Shown: one piece after another, positions 24,991-44,089 of the stretch
Layout of the letters: every line of letters starts with the position of its first letter
Numbering within the stretch: the first letter of the stretch is position 1
Source: Marsupella aquatica
Lineage: Eukaryota; Plantae; Marchantiophyta
DNA length: 64,000 bases
NCBI GenBank assembly: GCA_973895155.1
Contig: OZ316899.1
Location: forward strand, 12,465,934-12,529,933
Direction: 5' to 3'
The notes under the pieces: generated by a model
What the model saw: the letters and a program-made list of their open reading frames with translations, nothing else
Database searches by the model: none
What the model was told of the DNA's origin: nothing
Made by a program: the position numbers and the translations under genes

Positions 24991-25019
24991 AGGAAAGAAT
25001 ATATCAGCCTATTCATTAA

Positions 25020-25365
25020 AAGTGTATTATTATTTGATTTATGTACATTTGGGCAATGAAAAGTGTACTTTTGGGCTTGGAAAAGTGTACATTTGACCAA
25101 TGAAAAGTGTACATTTGGGGATAAAAAAGTGTACAATTGGTCTAAAGAGTGTATATTTGGGCAATGAAAAGTGTACATTTGAGCATCCAAATATGTACAT
25201 TTGGCTTAAAAAGTGTACATTTTAGTACATTTGGCCTAGAAAGTGTACATTTGAGTGAAAAAAAGATACATTTGGCTTAAAAAGTGTACATTTCAGTGCA
25301 TTTAGTCTAGAAAGTGTAGCTTTGAGTGCAATAAAGAGTACATTTGGCCTAAAAAGTGTACATTT
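25020..25365. repeat. Array of quasi-palindromic AAAAGTGTACATTT motifs
   Basis: More than a dozen degenerate copies at roughly 21-23 bp spacing, downstream of the transposase. Confidence 0.9.
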
Positions 25366-25586
25366 TCCTGAAAACTTTTATTGTAATCATTTAAAATAAA
25401 GAAATTAATAAAAAATATTTTTAATTATGCAGAAAAAATAAACATTCATATTCATAATAATCAAAAGTTTAGAAAATGAGTAGATAGTCTACTAAGTAAC
25501 TAAACACTCAATGGCATGGTCTCACAATATATATAACTCTTACATAAAAACTAATAACTATCTAATTATATCTTAGCTAGTGACAA

Positions 25587-28500
25587 CTAAGTGTACTTGT
25601 CCATCCTTTGGAGATAACTTTGGACAGTTTGTAGAACATTTCGAGGAATCTTCAAACCTCTGCCAACCATGTTTTCTTCCTTCATTCCAGATTTAAAACC
25701 ATACATTGCAGAATTTGCATACTGCCAATGTTGAGTGTTCTCACCAAATCCTGGATCTCGTTCCCATGTCTTGGTGGACATGAAACAATTGAGATACCTA
25801 GCACTCTCACTCACATCAAGTTTAGAGTGTTTAGGCCTCCACCATTCCACGGGGAACATTGGAGCATATTGTTGAGTCAAAGGAGGGTCTCTTGAAGATG
25901 CAATTGGGACTTCATGCTTAGGGTCCACCTGACCCAAAGCTCTCACCAACCAGAAATGACCTCCACCATTTTTCTTCTCCCAATCATCCTCGGGTCGAAG
26001 AAACACAAAGTTTCCTTCACAAATATCCTGGAGGGGAATCCACTGTCCTTGTTCTCTCTCAGCTCGAGATCCAACAAATGGTGCTGCTTGATCTTCCATC
26101 TCTTCCAAGACTTCATTTTGAAGAGCTGTCATCTCTGCATTCTCCTCATCTTCACTTAGAGGACCACTCTGTTCGCATGCCGATTGGTTGACCTTGTAAC
26201 CAGTGCTGTGGTTAGTCTTAGGCCAAAATCCATTTTTCAATGGAAATTGATTATTTCCCTCCCCTTCCATTGCAAGCCCATTTGACAACAGCTCCACAAT
26301 TCTTTCCCAATATTTAACAAGAGGAAATCTTTCCTTGTATGCTATTGACGTCTCATCAATGCAACTCCTTCTCAAAAAATCAAGGTACTTGTTAAGGAAT
26401 GGGATTATCTCTTCTGATTTTTTGTGTATCTCTCCTATGGATTTAGCTAAGGGTTGTCCACTGGGTAAAAGAAGAGAATTTGTTATTGGATCAGTTGCCC
26501 AAATGCACCTTCCGCCAACGGGAGCCCAAGCTTGCTTAACATGGGACTTATACTGAAATATTGGTACATTATCTCTCATAGAGAAAAGAAATGATACCGG
26601 TTTTGAGTGACCTTGAATATCTTTGACCTTAAAACTTTGAAGATATTCTTTGTAAGATGCAACTTCTTGTATCAATCTTGGAACTGGATGAATGCTCTCA
26701 CATTCCCAAACCTCTGCCATTAGTGCAAGAAGGGTTGCAACTTCCTTGTGCTGAACTTGATATGATACCTTGGAAAATAGTGCATCAACATCTTCGTGCG
26801 TATGACCAACCATTAGAAAGGACATTTGAACAGTTTCAAATATTCCTCTACTCACAAGCTCTGAGCAAAATGCCATGACCGTTTGGTTTTTGTTGTCCTT
26901 TGCTGAATTATCCATTTGCAATGTTAGGTGCCTTGGCAAGGGCATGAACAACGGACTGCCCTTCTCACCACCCACGTCCCCTCCATCATCCTCATCCTGT
27001 CGGGTTGGGATGGTCTCAGTCTGACTGTCGGCAGCTCCATCTTCAGAACCAATATACCTATTTACTTGAATATTCTTTGGTTCCAAATATCCTGACAAAA
27101 ATGCATCAAAGTCAAGTAGGGCTTGAAAGAAAGGTCTGTGAGGTTCCCAATGCAAGCCATCAAGCATGTCACCTGTCTTGTCTCCATTGTACTCTTCAAG
27201 ATCTCGAAGACACTTAGCCAAGGATGTCACTGTGAAATCTGCATCTCCTGGCCAAAGGCCAGTGACACTAAAGTGTGCATATACTCCTGGATCTCTCCCG
27301 TGGGTCAACATCCCCGTGAGAGCGATAGGTAGCGGCATTCCATGACCCGAAAGTGATTTAGGAGTACTAACCATTTTTGGAATCCATGTCTTTGCTTGAT
27401 CCATCTTGTCATGAATAAAGCAAAGATATTCTCCTGGATGTTGCTTGGCCATCACTCGATGAGCGTAGTAAACATATCTACGTGACATTTGCTCACGAAG
27501 ATGTTGAGCTCTTTTTTCTTCAATTTCAGCACGTTCTTTTTTCCTTCTCTCTCGCATCAAACTGTCTTTGTATTCACAACAAAGCGTACACTTGGCAAAT
27601 GCGCCATCCTTGTGAAAACTGAAGTTTGCAAATGATGTGCTCCATATCTTGTAGAGAGTGTTATCCGTAACAGGAGGAAGCCCTTCTTCCTTCATCTTTG
27701 TTCTCACATCTTCCAAAATCTCTAACTTTTTGTAACACGCTGGAAGTCGATACTCAATGCTGTCTGTCCCATGAGCCCCTCCATAAGGCATATGAGGCAT
27801 TGGCTCTGCATTTTGAGTCAGAAATGCCTCTAGAAGAGCTCGCGCATGCAAGGTATTTGACCTTGTTTTCTTCAAGCCTGTGTTCCCATGGAACCCAATT
27901 TTGCAACCCTCCATGTATCTTCTCTTGTAATCATAATACTTGGTGTGACTAAAACCATGGATGGTTGCAAATGCATCTTTACAGATGACCATACCTTTGA
28001 GAACATGGTGTCCCTTATCACGAACATCATCCTCTCTGTAGTGGAAGAGGTTGAAAATGTGTGATGTTTTGGACTCGCCAGACATCCCGTGAAATTCCAT
28101 CCTTACATCTTCTATATCTTCCCTTGGCATAATGAGACAACATTTATGCTTGCAGCAATTTACTCTTTTGATCTCATCAATTGCGGCTTCTGTTGTTTTT
28201 GAAACTGCCTTGGTTTGCAAGAGCCTCCTTTTCTTCTCAACAGGATCAACTTGATTCCTCTTGTTGAAGTTATATGGCCTTTGACGACATCCGGATGCGG
28301 ATCCAACCACATGATCCGGATTCAGATCATCCCTATCCATTGACTCCATATTCTCTGTACCTTCTACCAGAATGTCTGACAAAAATTTTCCAGTTGTTAC
28401 TAGTTTTGTGTGATCAATTCGCCATCGAACCAAACTAATTACTCCCTTGTGAATGCTTGGAAAGTATTGCGATTCCATGACATCTTTCACAGCAACCCCT

Positions 28501-29402
28501 ACATAGTCTTCTCCCAGGATTTCATCATCAACAGCCGCCGTTGCTTGAGGCACAGTGATAGTCCCAGTGGCAACCTTACTCGATCGTCCTGAACCAATGT
28601 ATAATTCGACCAACTCTGACATCCAATTGGACCGTTGGTAATAATCAGAATGAGTTTTGGTCGATTTTGTTGATGGAGAATGTGAGACAAAACTCTCCTC
28701 AATTAAAACGTCGCCATCACCTTGCTTCTTAGAGGAAGACTTTCTACCTTCATCAACATTCCAACCTTTTTTATGAACATCGGCCAAGTCCCAGAGAACC
28801 CATGAGTCTTTTGCCTCTTCAATTGTTTCAGCCCCATTGTGTATGTAAGGTAAAGCCTTACTACCATGAATAACATCAGTGATTTTCACACTGATCCGAG
28901 ACTCACCAAGTAATATGTTGTGACATCGGTCCTTTGGATTTACCTTGAAAATAACTCCAAGGGCTACACAACACCCATCAATGAGCATTTCAACCTCGTC
29001 CCCTTGCCTTAGAGTGTTTGATGCATCCTCCATAACAATTGTAGGAGATTTATCCAAGTTATTATCTGGTCGAGTTGAACAACTACCAGTACTGATGCGT
29101 TTTTGGGAATCTAGAGTTATAGAGAGATACGCGCACGAGATCTCCCAAATAACACATGAGTCAATGGCATCAAAAAGATTTTCTACCCTTGGTAGTGGAA
29201 ATGGTAGTTTTCGAGTTGGCTCGAAAACCTTCTCCACGAGCACACCAATTCGATTATCCCCCAACAATATGTTGTGCACCCTATCCTGGGGGTTAATTTT
29301 CTGAACTGTCCCACAACCGACATCATATCCATCAATTGTCAAGGTCACATCATCACCTCTTGAAAACCTTCCAGTCATTCTCGGATTTAGTAACCTGCAC
29401 AA
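25587..29402 (-). CDS. Sola-like / DUF7869-type DDE transposase with three N-terminal Tnp1/En/Spm-like repeats; first ATG at 29378
   Basis: Intact 1271-codon ORF with ICKDAFATIHG, KCTLC..H, HDKMDQ, LQMDNSAKDNKN and FLMVGHTHEDVDALFS. Three N-terminal repeats of V..G.V....P....H...LG...I.V.V.......W. Family names are from memory. Confidence 0.78.
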   Translation of the reverse strand: MCRLLNPRMTGRFSRGDDVTLTIDGYDVGCGTVQKINPQDRVHNILLGDNRIGVLVEKVFEPTRKLPFPLPRVENLFDAIDSCVIWEISCAYLSITLDSQKRISTGSCSTRPDNNLDKSPTIVMEDASNTLRQGDEVEMLIDGCCVALGVIFKVNPKDRCHNILLGESRISVKITDVIHGSKALPYIHNGAETIEEAKDSWVLWDLADVHKKGWNVDEGRKSSSKKQGDGDVLIEESFVSHSPSTKSTKTHSDYYQRSNWMSELVELYIGSGRSSKVATGTITVPQATAAVDDEILGEDYVGVAVKDVMESQYFPSIHKGVISLVRWRIDHTKLVTTGKFLSDILVEGTENMESMDRDDLNPDHVVGSASGCRQRPYNFNKRNQVDPVEKKRRLLQTKAVSKTTEAAIDEIKRVNCCKHKCCLIMPREDIEDVRMEFHGMSGESKTSHIFNLFHYREDDVRDKGHHVLKGMVICKDAFATIHGFSHTKYYDYKRRYMEGCKIGFHGNTGLKKTRSNTLHARALLEAFLTQNAEPMPHMPYGGAHGTDSIEYRLPACYKKLEILEDVRTKMKEEGLPPVTDNTLYKIWSTSFANFSFHKDGAFAKCTLCCEYKDSLMRERRKKERAEIEEKRAQHLREQMSRRYVYYAHRVMAKQHPGEYLCFIHDKMDQAKTWIPKMVSTPKSLSGHGMPLPIALTGMLTHGRDPGVYAHFSVTGLWPGDADFTVTSLAKCLRDLEEYNGDKTGDMLDGLHWEPHRPFFQALLDFDAFLSGYLEPKNIQVNRYIGSEDGAADSQTETIPTRQDEDDGGDVGGEKGSPLFMPLPRHLTLQMDNSAKDNKNQTVMAFCSELVSRGIFETVQMSFLMVGHTHEDVDALFSKVSYQVQHKEVATLLALMAEVWECESIHPVPRLIQEVASYKEYLQSFKVKDIQGHSKPVSFLFSMRDNVPIFQYKSHVKQAWAPVGGRCIWATDPITNSLLLPSGQPLAKSIGEIHKKSEEIIPFLNKYLDFLRRSCIDETSIAYKERFPLVKYWERIVELLSNGLAMEGEGNNQFPLKNGFWPKTNHSTGYKVNQSACEQSGPLSEDEENAEMTALQNEVLEEMEDQAAPFVGSRAEREQGQWIPLQDICEGNFVFLRPEDDWEKKNGGGHFWLVRALGQVDPKHEVPIASSRDPPLTQQYAPMFPVEWWRPKHSKLDVSESARYLNCFMSTKTWERDPGFGENTQHWQYANSAMYGFKSGMKEENMVGRGLKIPRNVLQTVQSYLQRMDKYT

Positions 29403-29589
29403 TTTTCAGAAAAACCATCACAAATCCGAATGACAAGAATTTGAAGAGACTCACAATTATCCATACGGTCATTTGATTGCCATTCCGAGAATCCAAACAT
29501 TGGCTCAACTATCACGCTTGGATTGGGGCCGGTGGTCCAAATCAAAACCATGAAGATTTTATTCCGAAGGTCAAATTTAAGCATCTCGC

Positions 29590-30690
29590 TTGAATTGGGA
29601 TCGTCCGAATCCAAACCAACCTCTATCCAACACACCCTCTTGGATTTGGATGGTCCGAATCCAAACCCAGATGGGATCCCAAAGGTCCCAATTCAACAAA
29701 CGCGCTTGGATTGGGATGGTCCGAATCCAAACCCATATTTTATTTCAAAGGTCCCAATTTGAGCACCGGGCTTGGATTCGGATGGTCCGAATCCAAAACC
29801 AGATTGTATTTCAAAGGTCCGAATCCAACCCACCATCTTGGATTCGGATGGTCCGAATCCAAACACAGATTCTATCCCGAAGGTCCCAATTCAACAAACC
29901 GGCTTGGATTGGGATGGTCCGAATCCAAAACCAGACTGTATTTCAAACGCCCAAATTCAACCATCTCGCTTGGATTGGGATGGTCCGAATCCAAACTGAG
30001 ATTGGATCCCAAAGGTCACAATTTAAGCATTGCACGCTTGGATTCGGATGGTCCGAATCCAACACACCCTCTTGGATTCGGACCATCCGAATCCAAAACC
30101 AGACTGTATTTAAAACGCCCAAATTCAACCATCTCGCTTGGATTGGGATGGTCCGAATCCAAACTGAGATTGGATCCCAAAGGTCACAATTTAAGCATTG
30201 CACGCTTGGATTCGGATGGTCCGAATCCAACACACCCTCTTGGATTAGGACCATCCGAATCCAAAACCAGACTGTATTTAAAACGCCCAAATTCAACCAT
30301 CTCGCTTGGATTGGGATGGTCCAAATCCAAACCGAGATTGGATCCCAAAGGCCACAATTTAAGCATTGCACGCTTGGATTCGGATGGTCCGAATCCAACA
30401 CACCCTCTTGGATTCGGACCATCCGAATCCAACACACCCTCTTGGATTCGGACCATCCAAATCAAAAACCAGACTGTATTTACCATCTCGCTTGGATTGG
30501 GATGGTCCGAATCCAAACCGAGATTGGATCCCAAAGGTCACAATTTAAGCATTGCACGGTTGGATTCGGATGGTCCGAATCCAACACACCCTCTTGGATT
30601 CGGACCATCCGAATCCAAACCAAGATTGGAATCTGATCAGATGGTCCCAATCCTAGAAATGGATTGGATTTGGATCATCCGAATCCAAAC
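29590..30690. repeat. Palindrome array 1: TTGGATTCGGA-(CCA/TGG)-TCCGAATCCAA, about 20 copies, 168-bp higher-order unit
   Basis: 11-bp arms around a 3-nt core; spacers mostly 9 or about 41-43 nt and themselves repeated; 56-aa periodicity in the shadow ORFs. Confidence 0.95.
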
Positions 30691-31686
30691 AACAATCTAG
30701 GATTAGGACCATTATAATCCACACATCAAGTCTGGATTCAAATGTTCTAACTCCACAATGAAGATTATGTTGAGATGGATATATTGAGATTGAGATCTCT
30801 TCCTAATCAAATTTAGACATTCCGGGTTTTTCGGAACATTGGGTAATTCGTGAAATAATAATTGGGAAGTCACTAGAATGCAGAACAAAGTGAAAGGGTT
30901 CGTCTCTCTTCCCTAAGAACTCAAAATAAGCAAAGCGACTAAGACCATAACTCACCTCAGCAGTCTTGTTTTTCCAGTATGTCTCCAAGGTTGGCTCTGC
31001 TACCTCTAAATTGATGAATAAGTTCATATCAATCTGACTAAGAAAGCTATCAAAGCCACTTCAAGTCTAAACTCCATCAGAGAGAAGAGCTGAGGAGGAG
31101 TTGCGCAGACCTGGATGCCCAAGTGAAGATATGAAACTAAAACAACAATGATGTCCGTAGAGTACCTCTTATACTCGTGGGTTGGTATGTTCTGCCCTGA
31201 ATGTGCGATCCGATAAGGTTGAGACAACACCGAGTATCGCGGTTAGAACAATCATCCAATCCTTTTTCAATCCATTGTGTCAGACAATACAGCTAGCGTC
31301 CCACCCAAACTGATAGGACCAGATCCCTTCTTGGTCTCTATCCGTATAGAGATGATCCGTACAGAGATGATCCGTACAGAGATGATCCGTGCAGCGATCA
31401 TCCGTACGCAAACAAGCCTTTCAGGAGGGGGTAAAGGGAGGATGAGGTCTTCCACAGACCTCATTGTTGTTTTCTCTCTGTCGCTCCTCACTCTCGCTCC
31501 TCCCTCTCGCTCCTCGCTCTCGCTCTAGCTCCTCATTCTCGCTCCTCGCTCTCGCTCTTGGCTGGCTGCCGCTGATATCCCTTGCCCTTGCCCTAATTGC
31601 CTTCTTGCCCTAATCTGCTGCAACGCCCTAGATCTTGCCCATCTTGACGTGTCCTCAGTATATCCTGCCACGTGTCACTCCTAAAA

Positions 31687-33340
31687 ATGGAAGTTTCCAA
31701 GAAAACCGTCATCGTCCTACTCGCCGAAGAATCTGATGACTTGGATCTCTCCTCTGTCGGTGATCTTGTGGCCCTAGCGCTTAGGGATTCCCAAGAATTT
31801 CAATCTCAAGTCCAAAGTAAGTTCCCGGAGGTTTATTCATGCATCTTAAGTTGTTGGATTCGGATGGTCCGAATCCAAGAGCGTTGTTTGGATTCGGACC
31901 ATCCGAATCCAAGTGGGTTGTTTGGATTCAGATGGTCTGAATCTAAGAGGGTTGTTTAAATTCGGACCATCCAAATCCAAGAGGGTTGTTTGGATTCGGA
32001 CCATCCGAATCCAAGTGGGTTGTTTGGATTTGGATGGTCCGAATCCAAGAGCATTGTTTGGATTCGGACCATCCGAATCCAAGTGGGTTGTTTGGATTCG
32101 GATGGTCTGAATCTAAGAGGGTTGTTTAAATTCGGACCATCCAAATCCAAGAGGGTTGTTTGGATTCGGACCATCCGAATCCAAGTGGGTTGTTTGGATT
32201 TGGATGGTCCGAATCCAAGAGCGTTGTTTGGATTCGGACCATCCGAATCCAAGTCGGTTGTTTGGATTCGGATGGTCTGAATCTAAGAGGGTTGTTTAAA
32301 TTCGGACCATCCAAATCCAAGAGGGTTGTTTGGATTCGGACCATCCGAATCCAAGTGGGTTGTTTGGATTTGGATGGTCCGAATCCAAGTGGCTTGATTG
32401 GATTCGGATGGTCTGAATCCAAGAGGGTTGTTTGGATTCGGACCATCCGAATCCAAGTGGGTTGTTTGGATTCGGATGGTCCAAATCCAAGTGGCTTGAT
32501 TGGATTCAGATGGTCCGAATCTAAGAGGGTTGTTTGGATTCGGACCATCTGAATCCAAGTGGGCTTCTTGTATTGGATTCGGATGGTCTGAATCCAAGAG
32601 CCTTCAATCTCACTTTGACAGTGATTTCTTAAAACAAATTTCATGGATTTGAAGTCTAATATGAATTTTCACTCTCCAATGCAGAGAGTGATCTGGTGAA
32701 TACAACTCTCGCCATTTCAGAGGCAGACTGCGACGATGGGCTCATTTTGGAGGACCGCGATCCAGGATTTTGGTGGGGACTTGAGTTCTCGCGAGTTAAC
32801 TTCCGCCTGAATTCATTTAACATTCAGGATCCAGTGTTATGTGTCAAGATCAGGACAGGCAACAACCAAACATTGGTCATCGGACCCGTGGTCTCTGTGG
32901 GAATGATAGGAAGAGGAATGAATTCTATCATTGTAGAGGTGTCGGACACGATGAGGTGGGCAAAGTTGTAGCTCCCCACAAAGGCTTTCTCGGCCGAGTT
33001 CAATGTGGAATGGTATGCAAGTGGGGAATTAAGTGTGTTGTCGATGGGATTCTTTCCAAAATCCTACACAAAGGAGAAGATTATTGGAGGACTGAAGGGA
33101 ATGCTTCCTTTGGACATTTTTTATGGGTTTCTTTATTTGAAACTCAACATTGTAAACAACCCATCAAAGTTCTCTCTTCCATCCACATGGACTCTTAACA
33201 ATTTGCTTGAGAAAGCAGGTCTGGTGTCACCAGACTCAAATGTTTGGATCGCCAAGGCACTAGCCTTTGCACACACGCTTGACCTGGAAAAAGCAAATCT
33301 ATGGGTAGAGTCTTTGGTGAAGTTGAGGAAAAGTACACAA
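31687..33340 (+). pseudogene. Unknown spliced gene: exon 31687-31816, intron 31817-32684, exon 32685 to beyond 33340; one in-frame TAG; cut by LTR B
   Basis: Donor AA|GTAAGT and acceptor TGCAG| join in frame (A+AG = Lys). ORFs 32696-32971 and 33005 onward share that frame. Confidence 0.65.
31853..32597. repeat. Palindrome array 2: the same 25-mer, about 22 copies at 34-bp period, 170-bp higher-order unit
   Basis: 9-nt spacers such as GAGGGTTGT and GTGGGTTGT; inverted relative to array 1 (spacer CACACCCTC). Confidence 0.95.
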
Positions 33341-34451
33341 TGTCACTTGCCTCTCCAACGGTTAATACGTGCAAACCGCACTTTTCTTCGCTTAAACCGT
33401 TGGTATCGTATTACGGGGTCGTGGAGGGACGCTATTTGGATTCTTTTCACACCAGGATGAGTATTTTGGTTTCCGCTCCCGGAAATGTAGGTTTTGATCA
33501 AGTCTACCGACTACCCTCACCCCACAGCTTTTGATCAAGTCCTGCCGACTACCCCACTACACCTTCACTCGGAGTCACCCAAAGAGTGCTGTCACCACCC
33601 CTACTCACAAGGCCGACTCAAACCAAGCAAGTTTCTTCAAATCATAGAACGGGAGAACACAATTCGGAAAGCGAAAAAGGGAGAAGGAACACACAACAAA
33701 AGCCCATCAAGTCAAATGTACAGATCCATATCTCTTGGGAAAAACGATACACATTGCATGAGTAACCCGGCCTCCTGCCGTCTACTCAACTCCTGCCTCT
33801 CCGGACAATGAGTATGGCTCCCCCTCACTACTCTGAACACGCTTTCAAACTCCTCAGGCTCCACTCTATCCCTCCTTGCTAACTTCACACTGAGTCCCCC
33901 TAACTACTTCGGGGCTATCCCCCTAAATACTGAAAAATCACACCAAAGCACCCCTCACAGGGTCACAACGGTGGCGGCTACCCTAGCGGCGCCGCTAAAA
34001 CCTTGCACTAAGAGAAATCCTTAAACTGAAGAGGAGCATGCGGCACACACATGCTGCTAAAACCCTAAACCCAAAACAAGGGGGCCGACGGTGCCTTCGA
34101 CGGCGCCCCAACAGTACACGTGAACCCTGAAAGTGAGAGGCACCCCAAAATGGCCGAAACTAGGTGCCCTTCCAAGTGCACACCTGAGCTCACCCCTGGA
34201 TAGCTCTTCTTTTCCTGCTTCCGAATCACTAAGTCGCTCCCTCAACGGACTTCAGACGCCTGAGTTATGGCCGTTTCCGTACCGCAAAAACATAAGTTCT
34301 CCAGGCCATAACTTGCTCATCCTGGCTCCGTTTGAGGAGCGCCGCCTCTTGTTGGAATCAGCTCCGCGAGCTCATCCCAACAAGCCCATGAGTGACCCCC
34401 CACTAAAATGTTGGAAATCTGGAGGCCGTACACCCACGTCCGTACGCCTAT

Positions 34452-36308
34452 CTAATCCTCCTCTTCTTCTTCGCTCTCGGTGCCCGGACTTGTGCCCCGT
34501 GAGTGGTCCTCCTCCTCATCACTCACGGGAGTGAGTGCCACCGTACTTTTCTTCTTCTTCGACGGAGTACTCTTAGTGCTGCTGCTCCCGCGCTTCCTCA
34601 AAGCAGCCAAGGCCTGCCACGCCTTGATGTACCCCTCACCAATTGTGTCCTTCCAGAGGGTAGCCTCTTCTCCGGACCGCAACTCCAACGGTAGAACTTG
34701 CCCCGTGGCCATGGGAGTCCCGGGGGTGACAGACCTGGGTGGCATCCCCGTACTGACCTGAGCCTCCCGTAACGATTTCCGTACCTCCCGGAGCTTCTTC
34801 TCCAAGCTCTTACTCTTCTCCTGACTCTTCTTGGCTCCATCCAACAAGGGTCCATACTTCCCACTAACCTCCTTCACCACCATCTCGATAGCTTGGGAGA
34901 TCACATCCGGGGAAAGTGTGGAGCCAGGTGTGCCGGGACTCTTCCGTTTCCCTAGACTCAGGGCCTCACTTCTCTTCGCTCGTGTCTCAAAGGCTGCCAC
35001 CTGACTCCGTAGTGCTCCCACCTGGTTCCTCCACTCCATCACTTCTCCAGAATTTTGCTTCTCTTTGGCCAATGCTTGCCTCAACGCTCCTACTTCTTCT
35101 GCTTCCTTGGCCTTGGTGGACAAAGCTCCCTTCAAGTTGGTGATCTCTACGTGAGCTGCATTGATGTGCCTGACCTTCTCATGAATGGTCTGCTCCTTGG
35201 TCTTGATCACCTCCTTCAGTGACAGGATGCTCTGCTCTAACGTCTCTACTTTGACTGTGGCGTGCTTGAGAGACTCCCTCAATGCGTGGACTAGCTTGAG
35301 TCCCTCGTGGACTCCCTCTCTGAAATCCCGTAGCTCTGCCAAGTAAACATCCGGAATGTTGTATTCCAGAGGCTGTTTCGGATCTCCCACGAGTGATTCA
35401 AGCCACTCCAATGTGCAATCATCCTCCTGGTTCTCTTCTTCTCTATTATCCTCCCCACCAGCAGACAATGATTCCTCCGTGAGCTTCCCTAAAACGGTAG
35501 TGGCAATACTCCGGATCTCCGTGGTGAGAGATGATCCCGTGTCTTCATGCCCCGGAGAACCAATCAACCCTTCTGCCCTGGCCAATACAAATGACCCCAT
35601 CAAATGTACAGCCCCACCTGGTTTCACACTCCCGGGCTCAGCGGCCAATAGCTTCTTCAATCCGTAGCACCACCATCCGTACACATGGGCTGGGTAGTTC
35701 TTGATGTCCATAGCTACCACGAAATGCTCCTCATTCAGCACTCCGGATTGCACGTTGCCAAGAACCCGTTGATGCACCTTGGCCAGGAAGCCCTTATACT
35801 CAACATCCTTGACAGCAGAAAGAGGGATGGCGGTGGTGGAGGTAGGATTGGTCACCCAAGTGGCCACCATTTTCAACGTGAGTTCTCCCCTGATATTCGG
35901 AGGTGTGAATGAGAATTTCTGATTCTCAAGAAACAATAGCTTAGCCAACTCCACATGGGGCACTACACGTTTGAGACATTCAAAGTAGATTCCCTCCGTT
36001 CGGAACTCCATCCCGGCCTCAATGTCCCAGCTCTTCCCTGAAGGGATGGTAATCTCCACCTTCATGAATTCTGTAAGCCCGGTGGCTTGGAAAATGTTCC
36101 GACAATCCTCCATCACCTTGGTGGAGGTCTTGGGATAAATTCGACGAAAAATCTTCCTACCCACCGGTGAGGAACCCGCTGCCAATCCCGTGCTCATCAT
36201 AACTTCTCTCTCTTCCCTTTCCCGTGTAATCCGAGTCTCCACGTAGTCACGGTAAGCAGCCTTGTATCTCCGAATGCGTGACGCACTAAACTCTGGTTGA
36301 TCTAGCAT
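34452..36308 (-). CDS. LTR-B-encoded 618-aa accessory protein (3' LTR copy)
   Basis: Intact ORF wholly inside the LTR: globular N-terminal half, coiled coil, KKKK basic patch and acidic tail. Confidence 0.9.
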   Translation of the reverse strand: MLDQPEFSASRIRRYKAAYRDYVETRITREREEREVMMSTGLAAGSSPVGRKIFRRIYPKTSTKVMEDCRNIFQATGLTEFMKVEITIPSGKSWDIEAGMEFRTEGIYFECLKRVVPHVELAKLLFLENQKFSFTPPNIRGELTLKMVATWVTNPTSTTAIPLSAVKDVEYKGFLAKVHQRVLGNVQSGVLNEEHFVVAMDIKNYPAHVYGWWCYGLKKLLAAEPGSVKPGGAVHLMGSFVLARAEGLIGSPGHEDTGSSLTTEIRSIATTVLGKLTEESLSAGGEDNREEENQEDDCTLEWLESLVGDPKQPLEYNIPDVYLAELRDFREGVHEGLKLVHALRESLKHATVKVETLEQSILSLKEVIKTKEQTIHEKVRHINAAHVEITNLKGALSTKAKEAEEVGALRQALAKEKQNSGEVMEWRNQVGALRSQVAAFETRAKRSEALSLGKRKSPGTPGSTLSPDVISQAIEMVVKEVSGKYGPLLDGAKKSQEKSKSLEKKLREVRKSLREAQVSTGMPPRSVTPGTPMATGQVLPLELRSGEEATLWKDTIGEGYIKAWQALAALRKRGSSSTKSTPSKKKKSTVALTPVSDEEEDHSRGTSPGTESEEEEED

Positions 36309-36736
36309 CCATGCATCCCGAAATCAATTTCTCAATCACCAATCCCGTCACCCGTGGCAATGTCAATTCCCTGGCCCGAAACAGCCCCCGTAGCCCGATC
36401 ACTTAAATTCTCTCAATTTCCCGTCACTACTCCGTGCGGCCGCCACTAATGCCTGGAAGAATGACGCCAGCAAGCCCCACTAATCCACCATGAAAGAGAG
36501 AGCTTCAAAAATAATTAGAATCTGGAGAGAGCTTCCGGCAAGAGAGAGAAGAACCCCGTTTTTGCTTTCGGCAATGAGAGGGTCGTGCAAAAGGAAGAGG
36601 GAAAGAAAAAGGAAGGAAAAAAAAAAAAAAATAGAACCGAAAAAACTCCTGGCGCCTTCGCCATGCGCCCCGGCCCATTTCTCGGGCCTTACCCTTGCGT
36701 CCTCCTGCGCGCGGCCCTATGCAGGGCGCGCGGCCA

Positions 36737-37108
36737 TTCCTCCCGGCTCGCGGGAGGCCCTTCAACTCCCCCCCGCTCGCGTGATCCTCCCAGCTCGCGG
36801 GAGGCCCTTTAACTCCCCCCCGCTCGCGTGATCCTCCCAGCTCGCGGGAGGCCCTTTAACTCCCCCCCGCTCGCGTGATCCTCCCAGCTCGCGGGAGGCC
36901 CTTTAACTCCCCCCCGCTCGCGTGATCCTCCCAGCTCGCGGGAGGCCCTTTAACTCCCCCCCCCCGCTCGCTTGCGCTCCTTCAGCTCGCGGAGCCTCAT
37001 TAATTGCCCGGGCACGCAGCCCTATGGGCTCGCGAGGCAGCCCCTTCAGCTCGCGGAGCCCCATTAATCGCCCGGGCACGCAGCCCTATGGGCTCGCGAG
37101 GCAGCCCC
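36737..37108. repeat. LTR-B minisatellite: about 5 x 47 bp plus 2 x 64 bp (also at about 47486-47858)
   Basis: GGGAGGCCCTTTAACTCCCCCCCGCTCGCGTGATCCTCCCAGCTCGC starts at 36752, 36799, 36846, 36893 and 36940. Confidence 0.95.
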
Positions 37109-37435
37109 TCTTTCTCTCGGACGGCCACTAATGGGACTCGCCCTCCTGAGGAGGGATTTATTTAAAAAAAAACCCCCCCCTCTCCTGACTTTGCAATGGG
37201 GGTCTCAACAATAGCTCTTGAAGCAAAACGGTAAGTCCTATGGGGCTGGTCCTGGCTAGTTTCAAGGTCCCAAAATATTTGCCCACTTAGGTCGCCGCAA
37301 ATCTTAGAACTATTATGAGAGAAAGAATATAAAGTCACCTGGGGCATCATCAACCTATAATGACGGAATTAACTAAAAATTAAAAAATGGCTTATTTACA
37401 TTGACTATTAACAAGGTATCGGCCTTTGCAACCAG

Positions 37436-40400
37436 TTATGTGTGACTTCCCGTGACGGGGTACCCGTCACATAGCTCCTCTCTTAATTGCGAAGCGCCCC
37501 CGCGAGCACCATACTCTTCCTCCGTGTAGTACTTCTTTAGGCGCTCTTGATTGATCCGTGTGTTGAGTAGTTGCCCCTCCAATGTCTTGAGTTGAACCGA
37601 GCCGTTGGAGTAGACGGCATCCACTACGTAGGGTCCCATCCACCGTGTATGCAACTTCCCGGGGAAATGCATGAAGCGGCTATCGTAGAGGAGCACCAAA
37701 TCTCCCTCCTCAATGGACACACGACGGAGACGGGAATCGTAATGTGACTTGCGTTTGCCTTGCTCCTGCTCCGTATGTGTCAAAGCCTCTTCTCGTGTCT
37801 CCGTGAGTTGCTCCAACTGTTGGATCCGTGAAGCGACACTTTCTTCTGCCCCTTCCCTTTCCCGTGTTAGGATTCGAATGGTTGGAACCTCAAATTCCAC
37901 CGGCACAAGAGAGTGTTGTCCAAACACAAGGAAATAGGGGCTGTGGCCCGTGGTAGTCTTGTGAGCCAGGTTGTAAGCGTAAGTGGCAGCCAACAACTTC
38001 AAATCCCAATCGGTCTTGTGAGCGGATACCGTTTTGTTGAGGATCTTGCCCATGATCCCGTTGGCTCTCTCAGTGAGCCCGTTGGCTCGAGGGTGGTACG
38101 GAGTGGTCTTCCTATGTGAGATCAAGTAGTTCTCCGTCAAACGTTCAATCGTATGATTGAGGAAGTGAGTACCCCTGTCACTTACCAACTCCAATGGTGG
38201 ACCAAATCGTGTAAAAATCTGCTCATACAAAAAACGTGCCGTGGTGTTGGCATCATCCTTGGCAGTAGCTCGGGCCTCCACCCACTTGGTGGCATAGTCC
38301 GTTGCAAGAATGATGTAGCGCTTCCTCCCTCTTCGTGTGATGGGAGTGAAAGGGCCAATGAAGTCCACCCCCCACTTCTCAAAGGGTGCAAGAGGAAGTA
38401 TGGGCACCAATGGGTGTCGTGAGGAGGGCCCTGGTTTGCCTTGACGCTGGCACGGATCACATCGCTGGATGTACCGGTGTACATCCCGAAAGAGAGTTGG
38501 CCACCAATATCCAGCATCTAGTATTTTCCTTGCGGTGGTCTCCCGTGCAAAGTGGCCACCAGCTTCCTCCTCATGTAATGCTGCCATGACTGTACGTATC
38601 TCCGCTTCCTCCAAACAACGACGAAGTCGGCCATCCATGCCGTACTTGTGAAGTACTCCCTTCACAAGCAAGTAGGGACCTGTCTTACGCAAAAACACTG
38701 CTGCTCTCTCCGGGCCCAAACGTGAGGGAACTCTAGCCGTGCGGAGAAATTCCAAAATTTCTCCATACCAAGTAGTGGCCTCTGTATTCACGCTGAACAC
38801 TTCCTCATCCGGGAACCGATCATCAATCTCCTGGGAGTCAGATGCTCCCTCAATACGGGAGAAGAAGTCTGCATTGCTATGACTCTTCCCCGATCTTACT
38901 CTCACCTCATAGTTGAACTCTTGTAGCAACAAAACCCAACGTGCAATTCTCCCGGACAGATCTGGCTTGTTGACCATGTATTTCAAGCTGTTGTGATCCG
39001 TGTGGAACACAACCTTGTACCCCAACAAATAATGACGATACTTCTTACAAGCGTAGATGATACCAAGTGCCTCCCTATCGGTGGGTGAGTAGTTTTTCTC
39101 TGCCGGGGCCAACTGCCTACTGGCAAAGTAGATGGGATGGTCTCTTCCATCATCATCTAACTGACTCAAAACGGCACCGATGCAAAATCCTGATACGTCT
39201 ACGTAAACATGGAATTCCTTATTCCAATTGGGCGTAATGAGCACGGGGGCCTCTAGCAATCGTTTCTTCAATTCATCAAAAGCAGCCTGACGGGAAGGAG
39301 TAGGTTCAAACTCACTTCCTTTTTTCAACATGGAAGTGAGTGGCATGGCTACCTTGGCAAAGTCTTTGATGAAGCGTCGGTAGTAGCCAACACACCCCAA
39401 GAACCCTCTCACTTCCTTCACATTCTTGGGAAATGAGACTGCTACCCACACGGCGACCTTCTCACGATCAACTTCAATCCCTCGTGCAGACACTTTGTGG
39501 CCCAATAGGATTCCCTCCTCAATTCCAAAGAAACATTTCTCCGGATGCAGCTTCAGGCAAGTCTCCCGGCACCGCTGAAAAGTCAACCGTAAGTGTTCCG
39601 GATGCTTGACTCGTTTGCCGTAGACAGCAAAGTCATCAATAAAGATCTCCAAGAACCTGCGTAAAAAGTCATGAAATATATTCATCATGAGCCGTTGGAA
39701 CATGCCAGGGGCATTGCACAACCCAAAAGGCATTCTCCGGAATGCAAAAATCCCCCACTCTGTTGTGAAAGCCGTCTTGAGTTGGTCCTCCTCCCGTATC
39801 CAGATTTGGTTGTACCCAGAGTAGCCATCCAAGAAGCTGTATATCTCCCAACCTGCTACCATGTCCAACACGATATCCGTGAACGGTAGCGGGTAGTGAT
39901 CCTTCTTGGTCGCATCATTCAACTTTCGAAAATCTTGGCACACCCGTATTTTCACCTTCCCGTCTGGCCCCTTTTTCTTGGGCACGATTACGATGGGTGA
40001 CACCCACTCACTATGCATGACCGGATAAATGAATCCTGCATCCAACAAACGGTCAATCTCCTCCTTCACCATGAGTGAGTATTTGGGGTTGAGGCGGTAT
40101 TGGCGTTGCCTCACAGGTCGTGCTCCTGACATCAGGTCAATGCTGTGCTCACCAAACTCAGGTGGCACTCCTTTCAAATCTTGGTGGCTCCACGCAAATA
40201 CGTCTTGGTACTCTTTCAACAATTCCTGAATCGTGCGTTGCTCCGTAGCATCCAACTTACTACCAATGTTGAGTGTCTTGCCCTCACCCACTTCCACCTT
40301 TGTGTACTGCTCCGGCCTGATCACGTCCAACTTGTTGCGTGTCTCCTCATCAAAGGTTTCTTCCAACCGTGCGAGCCTCATCCCTCCATACACCGGTGCA

Positions 40401-43400
40401 TCACTCTCCTCCTGGTCTGGTCGGGATGGAGGTGGATCCTTTGTCACATGGGCCATTATTTCTTCAACGTCAGATTCTTTGTAATGTGACAATAGCTCCT
40501 CTCTAAAGTCATCATCCAGGATGTCATTCAAAAACTGCTCTCTTTGCTCATCATCAAACATGATCGTGTGGGCTTGCATTTCCACCTCCTCGGGGTGATC
40601 CTCTGCCTCCCTATCATGAATCTCTAGAGGTTCAGCCTCCACAATTTTGCTTCGCTCGTCTTCCATCTCTTCTAGAACAGCGTGCACTTGGCTAACTGAT
40701 TCCTCTACTGCATGCTCTTGAGTAGCAACTCCGGGGCCAAAAACATCTTCCTCCGTGAGGTGAGAAATCAGTTTCACCATGTATACTTCATCCTCGTCTT
40801 CATCTGAGGTGACCTCTGAATCATATTCCTCCTCCATAGTCGTAGTCTCCCCGTGAGGTGACTCCGCTGACCATGGAATAGTGATAGTGGGGATACCAAA
40901 CCGAAACTGCCGTTTGCCCCAATCACTTGTGACCTTGGCCACATACAACCATGGCCTGCCAATTAAAATGGGAAAACCGTACGGCCGAACGGGTCGCATC
41001 ACCAAATAGTTGAGGGGGAAAGATTTTCCCCCAATCATTGTTGGAATCTTGGTGAGACACCCCAACGGCACCACCCGTGCACCATCAGCCAACCTCATGG
41101 CACGTGCCGGTGGTTCTAACTCTGTATACCCCAACCGGTTTGCCGTCTCCTCAGTCATGATGTTGACTCCCGAGCCCCCGTCCACCGGTACAAACCGTAT
41201 TGCACATCCATTGATGTCCACCGTGAGTTCTGGGGCACCCAAATCCTCCGTGACCCAGTTGACTTGTATGGGGTCAGCCCCAACTTTGGGTAACCTTCTT
41301 CTACGTCTCCTCCTCATGAGAATCTCCTTGACTTGGCGACGGTATAGGGAGCTATCCCGTAATAGTTGACCAATTGTGGCACTGACTGGGCAATCCAGAA
41401 TGTCTTGAGCAATGTTGTACGCGGTTGCAGGAGGTATGGGTGGGATGACCTCTTCTCCCGGTTTCCAACGAACAACCCTCTCCTCCGCTTTCTTTCTGGC
41501 CTTTGCCTCCTCCATGTCTTTGTCAATGGCCGCTTGCATGGCTTGTGCTTCTAGCTCCTCCAACTGCTTACGTACCTCTTCTCCCACCTTCGGATAGAAC
41601 AACTTGGGGTTGTCCCGATCAAAGTCACTATCCTCCATGGGTGGCACCTCCGGTTCGTGTGAGGTACCCGATGTGGAAGCTTGATGCACCTCCTTGTACT
41701 TCTGCTTGAGCTCGGACTTGCCCTTCTTTTTGCCGGATCGAGTGGAGACTCGGTAACAAGAGTAATGCCTTCTCTCCTCGTCGCTGTCTTCCTCCGGTAG
41801 ATTCTCAGCATGAGTCCACTCATGACTTGGGGGTGAGGGGTTAGCAACTTCAACTTCCGTAGATGTTGCAACAACAACCACCGGTATCTCAACAACTGGA
41901 GATACTACAACGACTAGCGGTACCACCTCCTCCGTTATGGTGGTCATCCTTTGCTTGGGAATGTTCACTACGGTTTCTTCTCTTCTAGTGATTAGAGGGG
42001 TGTCGACTGCTTCCGTGGTGAGAAAGTTGACGCTAGCTTCTTTCAGAGGAGGTGGCGGCCCCTTCTTCTCTTGTGCCCCAATCGGTTGAGCCTTGAACGC
42101 CTCCAAGGTTGGGCAGTGTGGTGCAAGATGACCCTCCCCCTTGCATAGTTGACACAGCCGGGCAAAATCTCCATTGCCTTGACGGGTGGGCTCTGGGCAC
42201 ACATTAGCGTAGTGGCCCGCCACTCTACAATTGTAACAAATAGGGATCTTCCTCACTCCAGGGTACGGTGGTCGATTCCCTGGGTTAGCGTTGGGATAGT
42301 TGGAGTATGCGGGTGCTCCGGCGTTTGTTGAAACTCCATGAATGCTCCGTGGTCCCGGGTTGAGAGGTTGTACACTATACACGTTGGCCTCTGGTGGCTC
42401 CTCCATGAAGTACTCTATTGGCCCTTCCGCTGCATATGAAGGATTTGAGTAGCTTGCCCCCTCAACATCCTCCTCCCGTACTTGGAAAACCTTGGCTGGT
42501 TCTCCCGCTGGGCACTCCTTCGGGGCATGACCAAACTTCATGCACTTGGTGCACCACACATTGGCTCTCTCCACCGGAACTTTTCTCCTCTCAGGTTTGA
42601 GTCCGGCAAAATGTACTTTCAACGCTTTCATTTGCTCCGTCAGCTCATCATATCTGGCCTCTTGCTCCTTCAGGCGTCTTGCCGTAGACAATGGTGTAAC
42701 GGCCACCGTGGGTAGTATCACTTCACGGTGAGAGGACTTCTTGACTTTCTTTGACAACTTCTTCTTCTTCCTCCTTCGTCTTTCAGCTTCTGACTCCGTA
42801 GTGTCTGACTCTGTAGTACTCTCAGAATCCTCAGATTCATCACTACTATCTGAATCAGATCCACTCGACTCCTCACTGGAGGAACTGTCAACCGGCTTCA
42901 GCTTCTTTCTTTGGCAACGCTTGCTTGTGGCATCAGCTGCGGTGTATGACTCCGCTGCTGCAATAGCTTCAGCCAATGTGGTTGGCTTGGCTTGACGTAC
43001 AAAGAACCCCATCTTGCTTGGTAGGGCAGCCACAAACCAGGCTTGACGCATAGCATCATCGGTACGGGCTTGGATCCGACGTACCAGCTTTTGGAACCTT
43101 TGCAAAAACCTCCGTAATGACTCCTTCTTCTTCATCCTGAGTTGGCCCACCTTTAATAGTGAGGTGGCCTCCACTCCTATGGATCTGAACTCCTTCAAGA
43201 AGGCTTGCTTGAACAGAGCCCAATCAGCTTTCACGTTGGCCAACAACGAAATGAACCATGGACCTGCCTCCCCTCTCATCATTCCAGGAATGATAGTGAG
43301 CTTATGTGCAGACTCCCCATTAGCTTCGGCAATCCCTTCAAACTCCTCAATCCATTCGTCTGGATCATCCTTTGGTCTCCCCTTGAAGGGTACGTACTGA

Positions 43401-43834: not shown

Positions 43835-44051
43835 CCCATTGAGACCTGCATTCCAAACTTACACCAATGTCTCAGAAAGCAATATTTGTAAACATCAACC
43901 GTCGCACGATGCGTTGTGGTTGACGTACAATAACAAAGTAACCAACAAACTTCTCACGTATCAACCGTCGCAAGTTGCGTTGTGGTTGATAGGTTTGAAC
44001 TCCCAATAGACGTAGCTCCCCTCCTTCGTGTCGTCAAACAAGAAGAAGGAT

Positions 44052-44069
44052 TCCCCGGCAGCGGCGCCA
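44052..44069 (-). promoter_or_regulatory. Primer-binding site, tRNA-Asp type
   Basis: TGGCGCCGCTGCCGGGGA versus the Athila-type Asp PBS TGGCGCCGTTGCCGGGGA; lies 20 nt after the LTR. Confidence 0.88.
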
Positions 44070-44089
44070 AAAACAAAAGACCACACTTA

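What the first reader, a model, noticed from the sequence alone, without database searches (positions are those of the whole stretch)
29395..32684. Mirror-image module: head-to-head genes whose first introns are each filled by an array of one 25-bp palindrome
Seen: array 2 lies inside an in-frame GT-AG intron (31817-32684, +). Array 1 lies between a strong minus-strand donor GAG|GTGAGT (30955) and an acceptor TGCAG|G (29395), 16 nt before the transposase ATG. The arrays are mutually inverted around a 1.1-kb core with CT-rich and ATCCGTACAGAGATG repeats. The 3-nt core of the palindrome flips between CCA and TGG, and the higher-order units are 168 and 170 bp, close to nucleosome repeat length. 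Inference: about 40 dyad binding sites around a bidirectional promoter, acting as an autoregulatory or anti-silencing platform (compare VANDAL/VANC motif arrays) or as a hairpin-RNA source, and removed by splicing.
Basis: partly seen in the sequence, partly recalled or inferred. Interest (0 to 1): 0.78.

Follow-up and report, generated by a model that had tools for sequence, protein, structure and literature searches.

The report
Plant transposon with ParB-like palindrome arrays
A DNA transposon, likely from a liverwort, holds 42 copies of one 25-letter palindrome in two predicted introns on either side of the likely promoter of its two back-to-back genes, and relatives of its second gene are predicted to fold like the bacterial DNA clamp ParB, so the arrays likely serve as loading sites for the element's own protein.

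Summary
There are 42 copies of a 25-bp palindrome (20 + 22, none expected by chance), all between canonical splice sites of two divergent genes. Gene 1 is an intact 1263-aa DUF7869, Sola-like transposase. Gene 2 is a real gene. Its first exon and intron position match an annotated liverwort gene. In this copy it carries a stop and is cut by an LTR retrotransposon; contigs of other runs show neither lesion. Longer relatives continue into a domain predicted to have the ParB/sulfiredoxin fold (Z 9.1 to bacterial ParB), and distant ones into a weak N6/N4-methyltransferase match. Related transposons carry their own, different palindrome arrays. Best reading: a two-gene Sola-like transposon whose intron arrays are binding sites for an element-encoded protein, likely the ParB-fold one (0.4). 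Rivals: transposase sites (0.25), neutral repeat growth (0.2). Against the best reading: no RNA was available, the ParB part is missing from this window, its arginine motif is altered, no helix-turn-helix was shown, and 80 related transposase loci lack the gene. The CCA/TGG flip is only site orientation, and the nucleosome-length idea is unsupported.

The parts
25005..25366 (+). Probable left end of the element, with subterminal repeats (AAAGTGTACATTTG-type, about 22-bp period) unrelated to the array palindrome; ATAT at 25001-25004 is a candidate target site
   Evidence: GC falls from 0.55 to 0.30 at 25000; 13 of 14 motif copies lie in 25060-25366; TRF; no inverted partner of the end in the window. 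The exact boundary is inferred.
25587..29378 (-). Gene 1: intact 1263-aa DUF7869 (Sola-like) transposase with a repeated N-terminal domain and invariant acidic motifs HDKMD (656), QMDN (821), HEDVD (861)
   Evidence: Pfam E 2.8e-43; 41 homologues; alignment; positions
29395..30955 (-). Predicted 5'-UTR intron of gene 1 (1561 nt)
   Evidence: Donor and acceptor in the sequence; acceptor-like sites 2-19 nt before the ATG in 5 of 5 related loci examined; no RNA evidence
29590..30688 (.). Array 1: 20 palindromes, spacing mostly 34, 66 or 68 bp
30723..31853 (.). Core, the likely two-way promoter: 30-bp inverted pair at 31139-31168 and 31444-31473 (83%), 15-bp repeat at 31340-31407, CT-rich repeats at 31473-31558
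   Evidence: promoter function is inferred
31687..31816 (+). Gene 2, first coding exon (43 codons plus 1 nt)
   Evidence: Matches the first exon of annotated Calypogeia protein P0119 in junction register
31817..32684 (+). Predicted phase-1 intron of gene 2 (868 nt)
   Evidence: GTAAGT ... TGCAG, in frame; same position in P0119 versus read-through ORF P0087
31854..32597 (.). Array 2: 22 palindromes, 34-bp period, inverted relative to array 1
32685..33340 (+). Gene 2, second exon as far as it survives: N-terminal domain with a weak PH-like fold; in-frame TAG at 32969-32971
   Evidence: 24 homologues, best E 2.5e-29; fold of homologue P0110, Z up to 5.0; all contigs laid at 32969 read C in 4 of 4 runs
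33341..48221 (-). Ty3-type LTR retrotransposon that cuts gene 2 in this copy; not part of the element. LTRs at 33341-37471 and 44090-48221 are 99.8% identical; the outer flanks do not match
   Evidence: contigs of X1, X2 and X4 continue past 33340 into other sequence

Best explanation
This is the left part of a Sola-like DNA transposon with two back-to-back genes, and its two palindrome arrays, which lie in predicted introns, are likely binding sites for the product of gene 2, whose longer relatives are predicted to carry a ParB-type domain. Shown: the arrays, the splice-site consensus, an intact transposase, the homology of gene 2, and other copies without the stop and the LTR. Predicted: the ParB/sulfiredoxin fold in a homologue, and both introns. 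Inferred: intact copies of this element carry that domain; a dimer loads at the symmetric sites on both sides of the shared promoter and keeps it usable against host methylation, in the way VANC does for VANDAL; splicing removes the sites from both mRNAs, so the arrays can grow and change at little cost. The transposase would use the different repeat at the element end.
For: All 42 sites lie within the two predicted introns. Of 27 homologues with the window's N-terminal domain, all 10 of 300 aa or more run into the same C-terminal domain (7 reach the SGQHS motif, 3 end in its first part; two of the 10 are adjacent accessions from one contig); the other 17 are fragments of 90-270 aa that end earlier. 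In the model of P0110 (pLDDT 74.5) that domain matches Myxococcus ParB at Z 9.1, rmsd 2.6 over 96 residues, and the top 14 rows are ParB, Noc, KorB or PadC. The best rows agree. ParB is a dimer that nucleates on specific sites through a helix-turn-helix and slides as a CTP clamp (PMC7333895, passages). The element end has its own unrelated repeat, so there are two motif systems for two proteins. VANC targets are tandem motifs in introns and other non-coding parts (PMC5735166, passages). 19 of 39 mismatches in the units are CpG transitions, as expected of methylated DNA. Diverged contigs in X1 and X2 also run from the core into the palindrome.
Against: The ParB part is not in the window; it is inferred from homologues only 25-40% identical. 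The motif reads SGQHSxxA where ParB has GERRxRA, so the key arginine is missing. No helix-turn-helix was shown. None of 80 related transposase loci holds a gene-2 homologue, although several have their own palindrome arrays, one with 9.6 kb of upstream DNA (L006). No record shows a gene-2 homologue beside a DUF7869 gene in another organism; the Riccia locus tags listed are not adjacent. Two contigs each in X3 and X4 leave the core at 31837 into unrelated sequence. Binding, splicing and demethylation were not observed.
Confidence: 0.4

Rival explanations
1. The palindromes are transposase binding sites, ancestral to the clade. An inverted duplication of a promoter-plus-intron module moved them inside the element, where they regulate the promoter or help pair the ends, and gene 2 is cargo with another job such as a nucleotide or DNA-modifying enzyme.
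For: Relatives without a detected gene 2 have lineage-specific palindromes upstream of the transposase: L001 (9 copies), L012 (10), L006 (4 copies of a 30-mer in tandem repeats). GTGGCCAC occurs 102 times in 610 kb of 64 distinct loci, against 0-4 for ten control 8-mers; 20 of the 22 loci with two or more copies have at least two within 3.5 kb downstream of the transposase. The core holds a 30-bp inverted pair. Two Riccia relatives of gene 2 have a weak N6_N4_Mtase match (E 0.0034 and 0.00058, both below the cut-off).
Against: The end of this element has a different repeat. Most related loci are short or degraded, and the profiles come from liverwort-like sequences, so a distant gene 2 could be missed. 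The resampling control reached 5 copies, and AT-rich palindromes reached 9 in other loci.
Confidence: 0.25
2. The arrays have no binding role. A hairpin-prone unit expanded by slippage and unequal exchange in two introns, where it is tolerated, and its loop flipped by template switching.
For: The arrays are only 70% alike and are homogenised separately into different higher-order units. Cores flip while spacers keep their orientation. CpG decay is tolerated. One unit folds at -10.7 kcal/mol as DNA.
Against: The 22 arm bases stay close to one consensus in both arrays (39 mismatches over 42 units) while spacers differ. Unrelated palindromes recur at similar places in other lineages.
Confidence: 0.2
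3. The excised introns fold into hairpins that yield small RNAs or act as silencing decoys.
For: Any two units can pair; one unit folds at -14.9 kcal/mol as RNA; 33 weak Rfam hits, nearly all to miRNA hairpin models, fall in the arrays. RdDM targets the VANC-bound regions of VANDAL (PMC10398659, abstract only).
Against: None of the 33 hits reaches its family's gathering score. Pairing follows from any palindrome. Such RNA would tend to silence the element that makes it.
Confidence: 0.08
4. The arrays are an independent satellite or MITE that inserted twice.
For: Two contigs each in X3 and X4 leave the core at 31837 into unrelated sequence. No whole genome was available to count arrays elsewhere.
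Against: 0 of 42 units lie outside the two introns in 64 kb. Both arrays sit close inside splice sites. Diverged contigs keep the core-to-array junction.
Confidence: 0.05

Closest known systems
Sola superfamily DNA transposons (Sola1-like)
   Same: Single large transposase with invariant acidic motifs; candidate AWWT target site (ATAT) at the left end; a relative in Physcomitrium, where Sola is reported (PMC10741241 and PMC3845634, passages). The match of the LQMDN..NKN and GHTHED motifs to Sola is recalled, not from a call.
   Different: Second, divergently read gene with a predicted ParB fold; palindrome arrays in introns; TIR and TSD cannot be checked because the right end is missing; Sola2 motifs absent.
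VANDAL / VANC anti-silencing system (Arabidopsis MULEs)
   Same: Element-borne accessory gene; short motifs amplified as tandem repeats in introns; motifs differ between families (PMC5735166, passages).
   Different: Not a MULE transposase; gene 2 shows no VANC-type Pfam family; VANC21 motifs are asymmetric 9-mers in one orientation, whereas these are 25-bp palindromes; no demethylation shown.
Bacterial ParB/parS, Noc/NBS and KorB clamps
   Same: Predicted ParB N-terminal fold in a homologue of gene 2 (Z 9.1); many symmetric sites clustered near the gene.
   Different: GERRxRA replaced by GQHSxxA; extra N-terminal PH-like domain; no helix-turn-helix shown; no ParA seen; eukaryotic, intron-containing gene on a transposon.
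DUF3723 cargo of fungal Starship elements
   Same: Atlas feature search with P0111 gives DUF3723 clusters at 0.91 (151-152 of 256 features shared, below the 170 typical of one family); DUF3723 is conserved cargo of a eukaryotic mobile element (10.1101/2021.12.13.472469, passages).
   Different: No Pfam DUF3723 match; different mobiliser (DDD transposase, not tyrosine recombinase); the passages read mention no palindrome arrays.
Phage ParB-methylase loci and eukaryotic N6A/N4C methyltransferases
   Same: Riccia relatives P0118 and P0120 join the ParB-type domain to a weak N6_N4_Mtase match; phage ParB-linked methylases entered eukaryotes several times (PMC4738411, passages).
   Different: Matches are below the curated cut-off; those proteins lack the window's N-terminal domain; no methylase is shown for this element; no link to Marchantia DN4MT1 was tested.

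Membership tests
Sola | DDD catalytic triad | tested here: inconclusive
   Three invariant acidic motifs (HDKMD, LQxDN, GHTHEDxD) in 16 aligned proteins; no solved relative and the transposase was not folded
Sola | 4-bp TSD, AWWT for Sola1 | tested here: inconclusive
   ATAT precedes the inferred left end at 25005; right end absent
Sola | Terminal inverted repeats | not testable with these tools
   Right end not in the window; no genome
Sola | Similarity to a named Sola1 transposase | not testable with these tools
   The defining paper is not held and Repbase is not available; named homologues are labelled DUF7869 or hypothetical
Sola2 | DFSENY, SDGA.QYKN and FFATSHGKG motifs | tested here: not met
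   Supplement S10 of PMC3627910, part 1 of 2, compared by eye
ParB/parS | ParB/sulfiredoxin N-terminal fold | tested here: met
   On a predicted model of homologue P0110, not on the window's truncated product: Z 9.1, rmsd 2.6, 96 residues
ParB/parS | Arginine-rich GERRxRA motif | tested here: not met
   SGQHS invariant in 14 of 14 aligned proteins; motif definition from PMC7333895
ParB/parS | Helix-turn-helix DNA-binding domain after the N-terminal domain | tested here: inconclusive
   Most homologues end at the next predicted donor; the model of P0120 failed (pLDDT 34)
ParB/parS | Repeated symmetric DNA sites near the gene | tested here: met
   42 palindromes; binding not tested
ParB/parS | CTP binding, clamp closure and sliding | not testable with these tools
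   Needs biochemistry
ParB/parS | ParA partner | tested here: inconclusive
   None among 21 long ORFs scanned, but the element is truncated
VANDAL/VANC | MULE transposase | tested here: not met
   Only DUF7869 in Pfam
VANDAL/VANC | VANC-type accessory protein | tested here: not met
   No Pfam family above cut-off in 18 and 10 homologues; fold is PH-like plus ParB-like
VANDAL/VANC | Family-specific motifs in tandem repeats in introns | tested here: met
   the introns are predicted
VANDAL/VANC | [quoted passage not shown] | not testable with these tools
   No methylome available
miRNA precursor | Match to an Rfam family at its gathering score | tested here: not met
   0 of 33 hits

The most novel reading that the evidence does not exclude
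A eukaryotic ParB/parS-like system: a liverwort transposon family has taken up a ParB-type clamp, perhaps fused to an N6/N4 DNA methyltransferase, that loads at its own intronic palindrome arrays and spreads over the element to mark it or shield it from silencing.
Probability: 0.2. Interest if true: 0.92.

Novelty: new variant of a known kind. Interest (0 to 1): 0.7.

Why it matters
Sequence-specific anti-silencing is described for Arabidopsis VANDAL elements, and how VANC acts over kilobases from short motifs is still open in the passages I read. A second, unrelated plant transposon that pairs intronic motif arrays with a ParB-fold protein would offer a concrete mechanism, loading followed by sliding, and a simple binding test with a 25-bp probe. 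It would also give a testable lead for DUF3723-like cargo of fungal Starships. Even if gene 2 does not bind the arrays, a ParB-fold cargo gene on a plant DNA transposon did not appear in my searches of the paper library; most subscription papers and Repbase Reports were not searchable.

Tried and rejected
No whole genome is held, so copy number, right end, TIR and TSD are open. No RNA holder was listed, which says nothing about expression. Contigs of X1-X4 (kind not on record) were laid on the core and on exon 2 only, so joints across the introns could not appear. No loose end at 30955 or 31816 was among the rows shown (47 not shown), and three listed contigs bridge the 30955 donor unspliced, as DNA would. 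Homodimer prediction for the ParB-type domain of P0113 gave no answer (score 0.00) and is not used. The model of P0120 failed (pLDDT 34) and was not searched. No gene-2 homologue of 997-2845 aa was found. No relatives in viral or prokaryotic genome contigs for the transposase, the ParB-type domain or the palindrome. No significant PDB sequence match for either protein; P0120 to M.RsrI has E 0.18. The Atlas hit for the methylase part is a lead only (0.82). Collinearity of Calypogeia and Riccia proteins behind the ParB domain passed the shuffle test clearly in 1 of 4 pairs (0, 9, 28 and 45 of 300 shuffles). BLASTP did not align exon 1 to P0119; the junction-anchored test did. A resemblance of L009's upstream gene to exon 1 was rejected; it is a NIF-domain gene. 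Earlier findings: three look-ups returned nothing. Nucleosome-length reading set aside: several periods fit. Papers not held: Bao 2009, Yuan and Wessler 2011, Maindola 2014; their alignments bear on the Sola and ParB assignments. Supplements of the bioRxiv papers were not seen.
Full report
Observation. The 25-bp palindrome occurs 42 times in the window with up to 3 mismatches, 20 times at 29590-30688 and 22 times at 31854-32597, and in 0 of 100 shuffles. Array 2 has a 34-bp period; array 1 mixes 34, 66 and 68 bp. TRF reports 168 and 170 but also 34, 66, 68, 102 and 198, so the nucleosome-length remark has no special standing. CCA is the reverse complement of TGG, so the core flip only marks the orientation of a symmetric site. 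The arrays align better inverted (303 bits, 70% over 713 nt) than direct (138 bits). The core holds a 30-bp inverted pair at 31139-31168 and 31444-31473. The splice sites are as described.

Gene 1. The minus-strand ORF from 29378 is intact, 1263 aa, and matches DUF7869 at E 2.8e-43. Its 41 homologues include Riccia sorocarpa and Physcomitrium proteins. In a quick tree of 23 proteins it falls in a clade of 16 with the five Riccia rows (SH-aLRT 99), so the host is likely a liverwort; this is inference. Invariant motifs HDKMD, LQxDN and GHTHEDxD fit a DDD/E transposase. The Sola2 motifs in supplement S10 of PMC3627910 (part 1 of 2 read) are absent. A Sola1-like assignment rests on recall, on the reported presence of Sola in moss (PMC10741241, passages) and on ATAT before the inferred left end, which fits AWWT (PMC3845634, passages). 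The left end has its own repeat, 13 copies in 25060-25366. The right end is not in the window.

Gene 2. Exon 2, read with X at its stop, finds 24 homologues among 1.84 billion representatives, best E 2.5e-29; named ones are from Calypogeia fissa. The annotated Calypogeia protein P0119 has a 48-residue first part that ends where the read-through ORF P0087 diverges from it. There ALCDGQMF stands in the same register to the junction as ALRDSQEF in the window. This offset scores 22 against 10 for the next best offset, with shuffle p from 3e-4 to below 1e-5 over five window lengths. The array-2 intron therefore has a conserved position. For intron 1, five related loci that I chose for an intact start (three lineages; 13 of 64 distinct loci reach the N-terminal part) all have a CAG 2-19 nt before the ATG; this has no chance control.

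This copy is broken, others are not. Gene 2 has TAG at 32969 and meets a Ty3-type LTR at 33341. At 32969 all laid depth reads C in 4 of 4 runs. At 33337-33340, contigs of X1 (3), X2 (1) and X4 (1) go on into non-LTR sequence; 24 loose-end rows were not shown. That continuation is not in the window. In X2, near-identical pieces over the core and exon 2 have depth 118-175 and diverged pieces 10-22. This suggests a multi-copy family, though the tool warns that depth is not copy number. Diverged contigs of X1 and X2 run from the core into the palindrome at 31844; two contigs each of X3 and X4 leave at 31837 into unrelated sequence.

What gene 2 encodes. Of 27 homologues with the window's domain, all 10 of 300 aa or more continue through a lysine-rich linker into one conserved domain; the other 17 are shorter fragments. 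AlphaFold2 of P0110 gives two confident domains. The C-terminal one matches ParB at Z 9.1, rmsd 2.6 over 96 residues, with 14 ParB, Noc, KorB or PadC rows on top. The Foldseek-independent search gives PadC Z 8.1 and KorB 7.5; the best viral match is a chromosome-partitioning protein at E 4e-4; Foldseek on the PDB had no row under E 0.001. The N-terminal domain, the part in the window, is PH-like at Z 5.0 or less, which may be only a common arrangement. The nucleotide motif is SGQHS in 14 of 14 aligned proteins, without the arginine of GERRxRA (PMC7333895, passages). The Atlas points to fungal DUF3723 at 0.91, a Starship cargo (10.1101/2021.12.13.472469, passages). Two Riccia relatives lack the N-terminal domain and add a sub-threshold N6_N4_Mtase match, one also a NIF domain. 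Whether this element had a methylase is unknown.

Relatives of the element. A metagenome scan kept 80 of 491 loci, 64 of them distinct. Repeated palindromes of other sequence lie upstream of the transposase in L001 (9), L012 (10, some behind a donor-like site at the 3' side), L006 (4) and L009-L011 (31, one locus). The resampling control reached 5 and AT-rich palindromes reached 9 in other loci. GTGGCCAC occurs 102 times against 0-4 for controls, on both sides of the transposase. In L009 a NIF-domain gene lies on the opposite strand beyond two opposed arrays, a second head-to-head case, though degraded. None of the 80 loci has a gene-2 homologue. This is the main result against gene 2 as the binder.

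Mechanism. I commit to an element-encoded protein binding the arrays, most likely the ParB-fold product (0.4). The reasons are that the sites are symmetric, they flank the likely promoter on both sides, they differ from the terminal repeat, and the fold family is known for loading at such sites. The logic parallels VANC, whose motifs form tandem repeats in introns (PMC5735166, passages). CpG transitions make up 19 of 39 mismatches, though amplified units are not independent events. Transposase binding (0.25) and neutral growth (0.2) remain close rivals; hairpin RNA (0.08) and an independent satellite (0.05) are weak.

Comparison and novelty. It works like VANDAL/VANC by inference but is not a member, since the transposase and accessory protein are different. 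It has the ParB fold and repeated sites but fails the arginine-motif test, so it is not filed as ParB/parS. Searches for DUF3723 with ParB and for ParB, sulfiredoxin, transposable element, eukaryote and land plants together returned no paper. Searches listed none on this element, judged from titles and abstract starts. I also read passages of PMC4738411, 10.1101/2021.02.12.428880, PMC10853773, PMC5751038, PMC4455052 and PMC3627910, and the abstract of PMC10398659. Verdict: a new variant of a known kind, interest 0.70; a eukaryotic ParB/parS-like clamp has probability 0.2 and interest 0.92 if true.

Noticed in passing
window 33341-48221: Ty3-type retrotransposon with 4.1-kb LTRs, 99.8% identical, each holding a 623-codon open frame and a 47-bp tandem repeat; the outer flanks (CACAA, GTAAG) do not match, so a deletion or recombination likely removed the rest of the DNA transposon.
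   Followed up: partly
window 31027-29340 (-): An upstream ATG at 31027 opens a 37-codon frame across the predicted junction that overlaps the transposase ATG out of frame, a possible translational brake.
   Followed up: no
window 29590-32597: Each palindrome arm holds a GANTC site; that this is the target of some beta-class adenine methylases is recalled. Noticed after the fact and not tested.
   Followed up: no
window 28300-29378 (-): The transposase N-terminus has three copies of a small domain (PF26133 precomputed in homologues; weak Transposase_23, E 0.015); relatives have two or three copies.
   Followed up: no
L009 4000-7100: Degraded NIF-phosphatase gene on the minus strand next to two opposed GTGGCCAC arrays, upstream of a truncated transposase; Riccia P0120 also joins NIF to the ParB-type protein.
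   Followed up: partly
L012 50-700 and 2767-2977: The same 22-bp palindrome lies upstream of the transposase and again behind a donor-like site inside its 3' part, which suggests arrays in more than one intron.
   Followed up: partly
window 32846-33263, run X4: A subfamily about 13% diverged has depth 1494-1726 against 276-361 for the near-identical one, so organism B likely holds a more abundant sister family.
   Followed up: no
L004 5238-5656: A second, partial copy of the transposase C-terminus follows the full gene.
   Followed up: no
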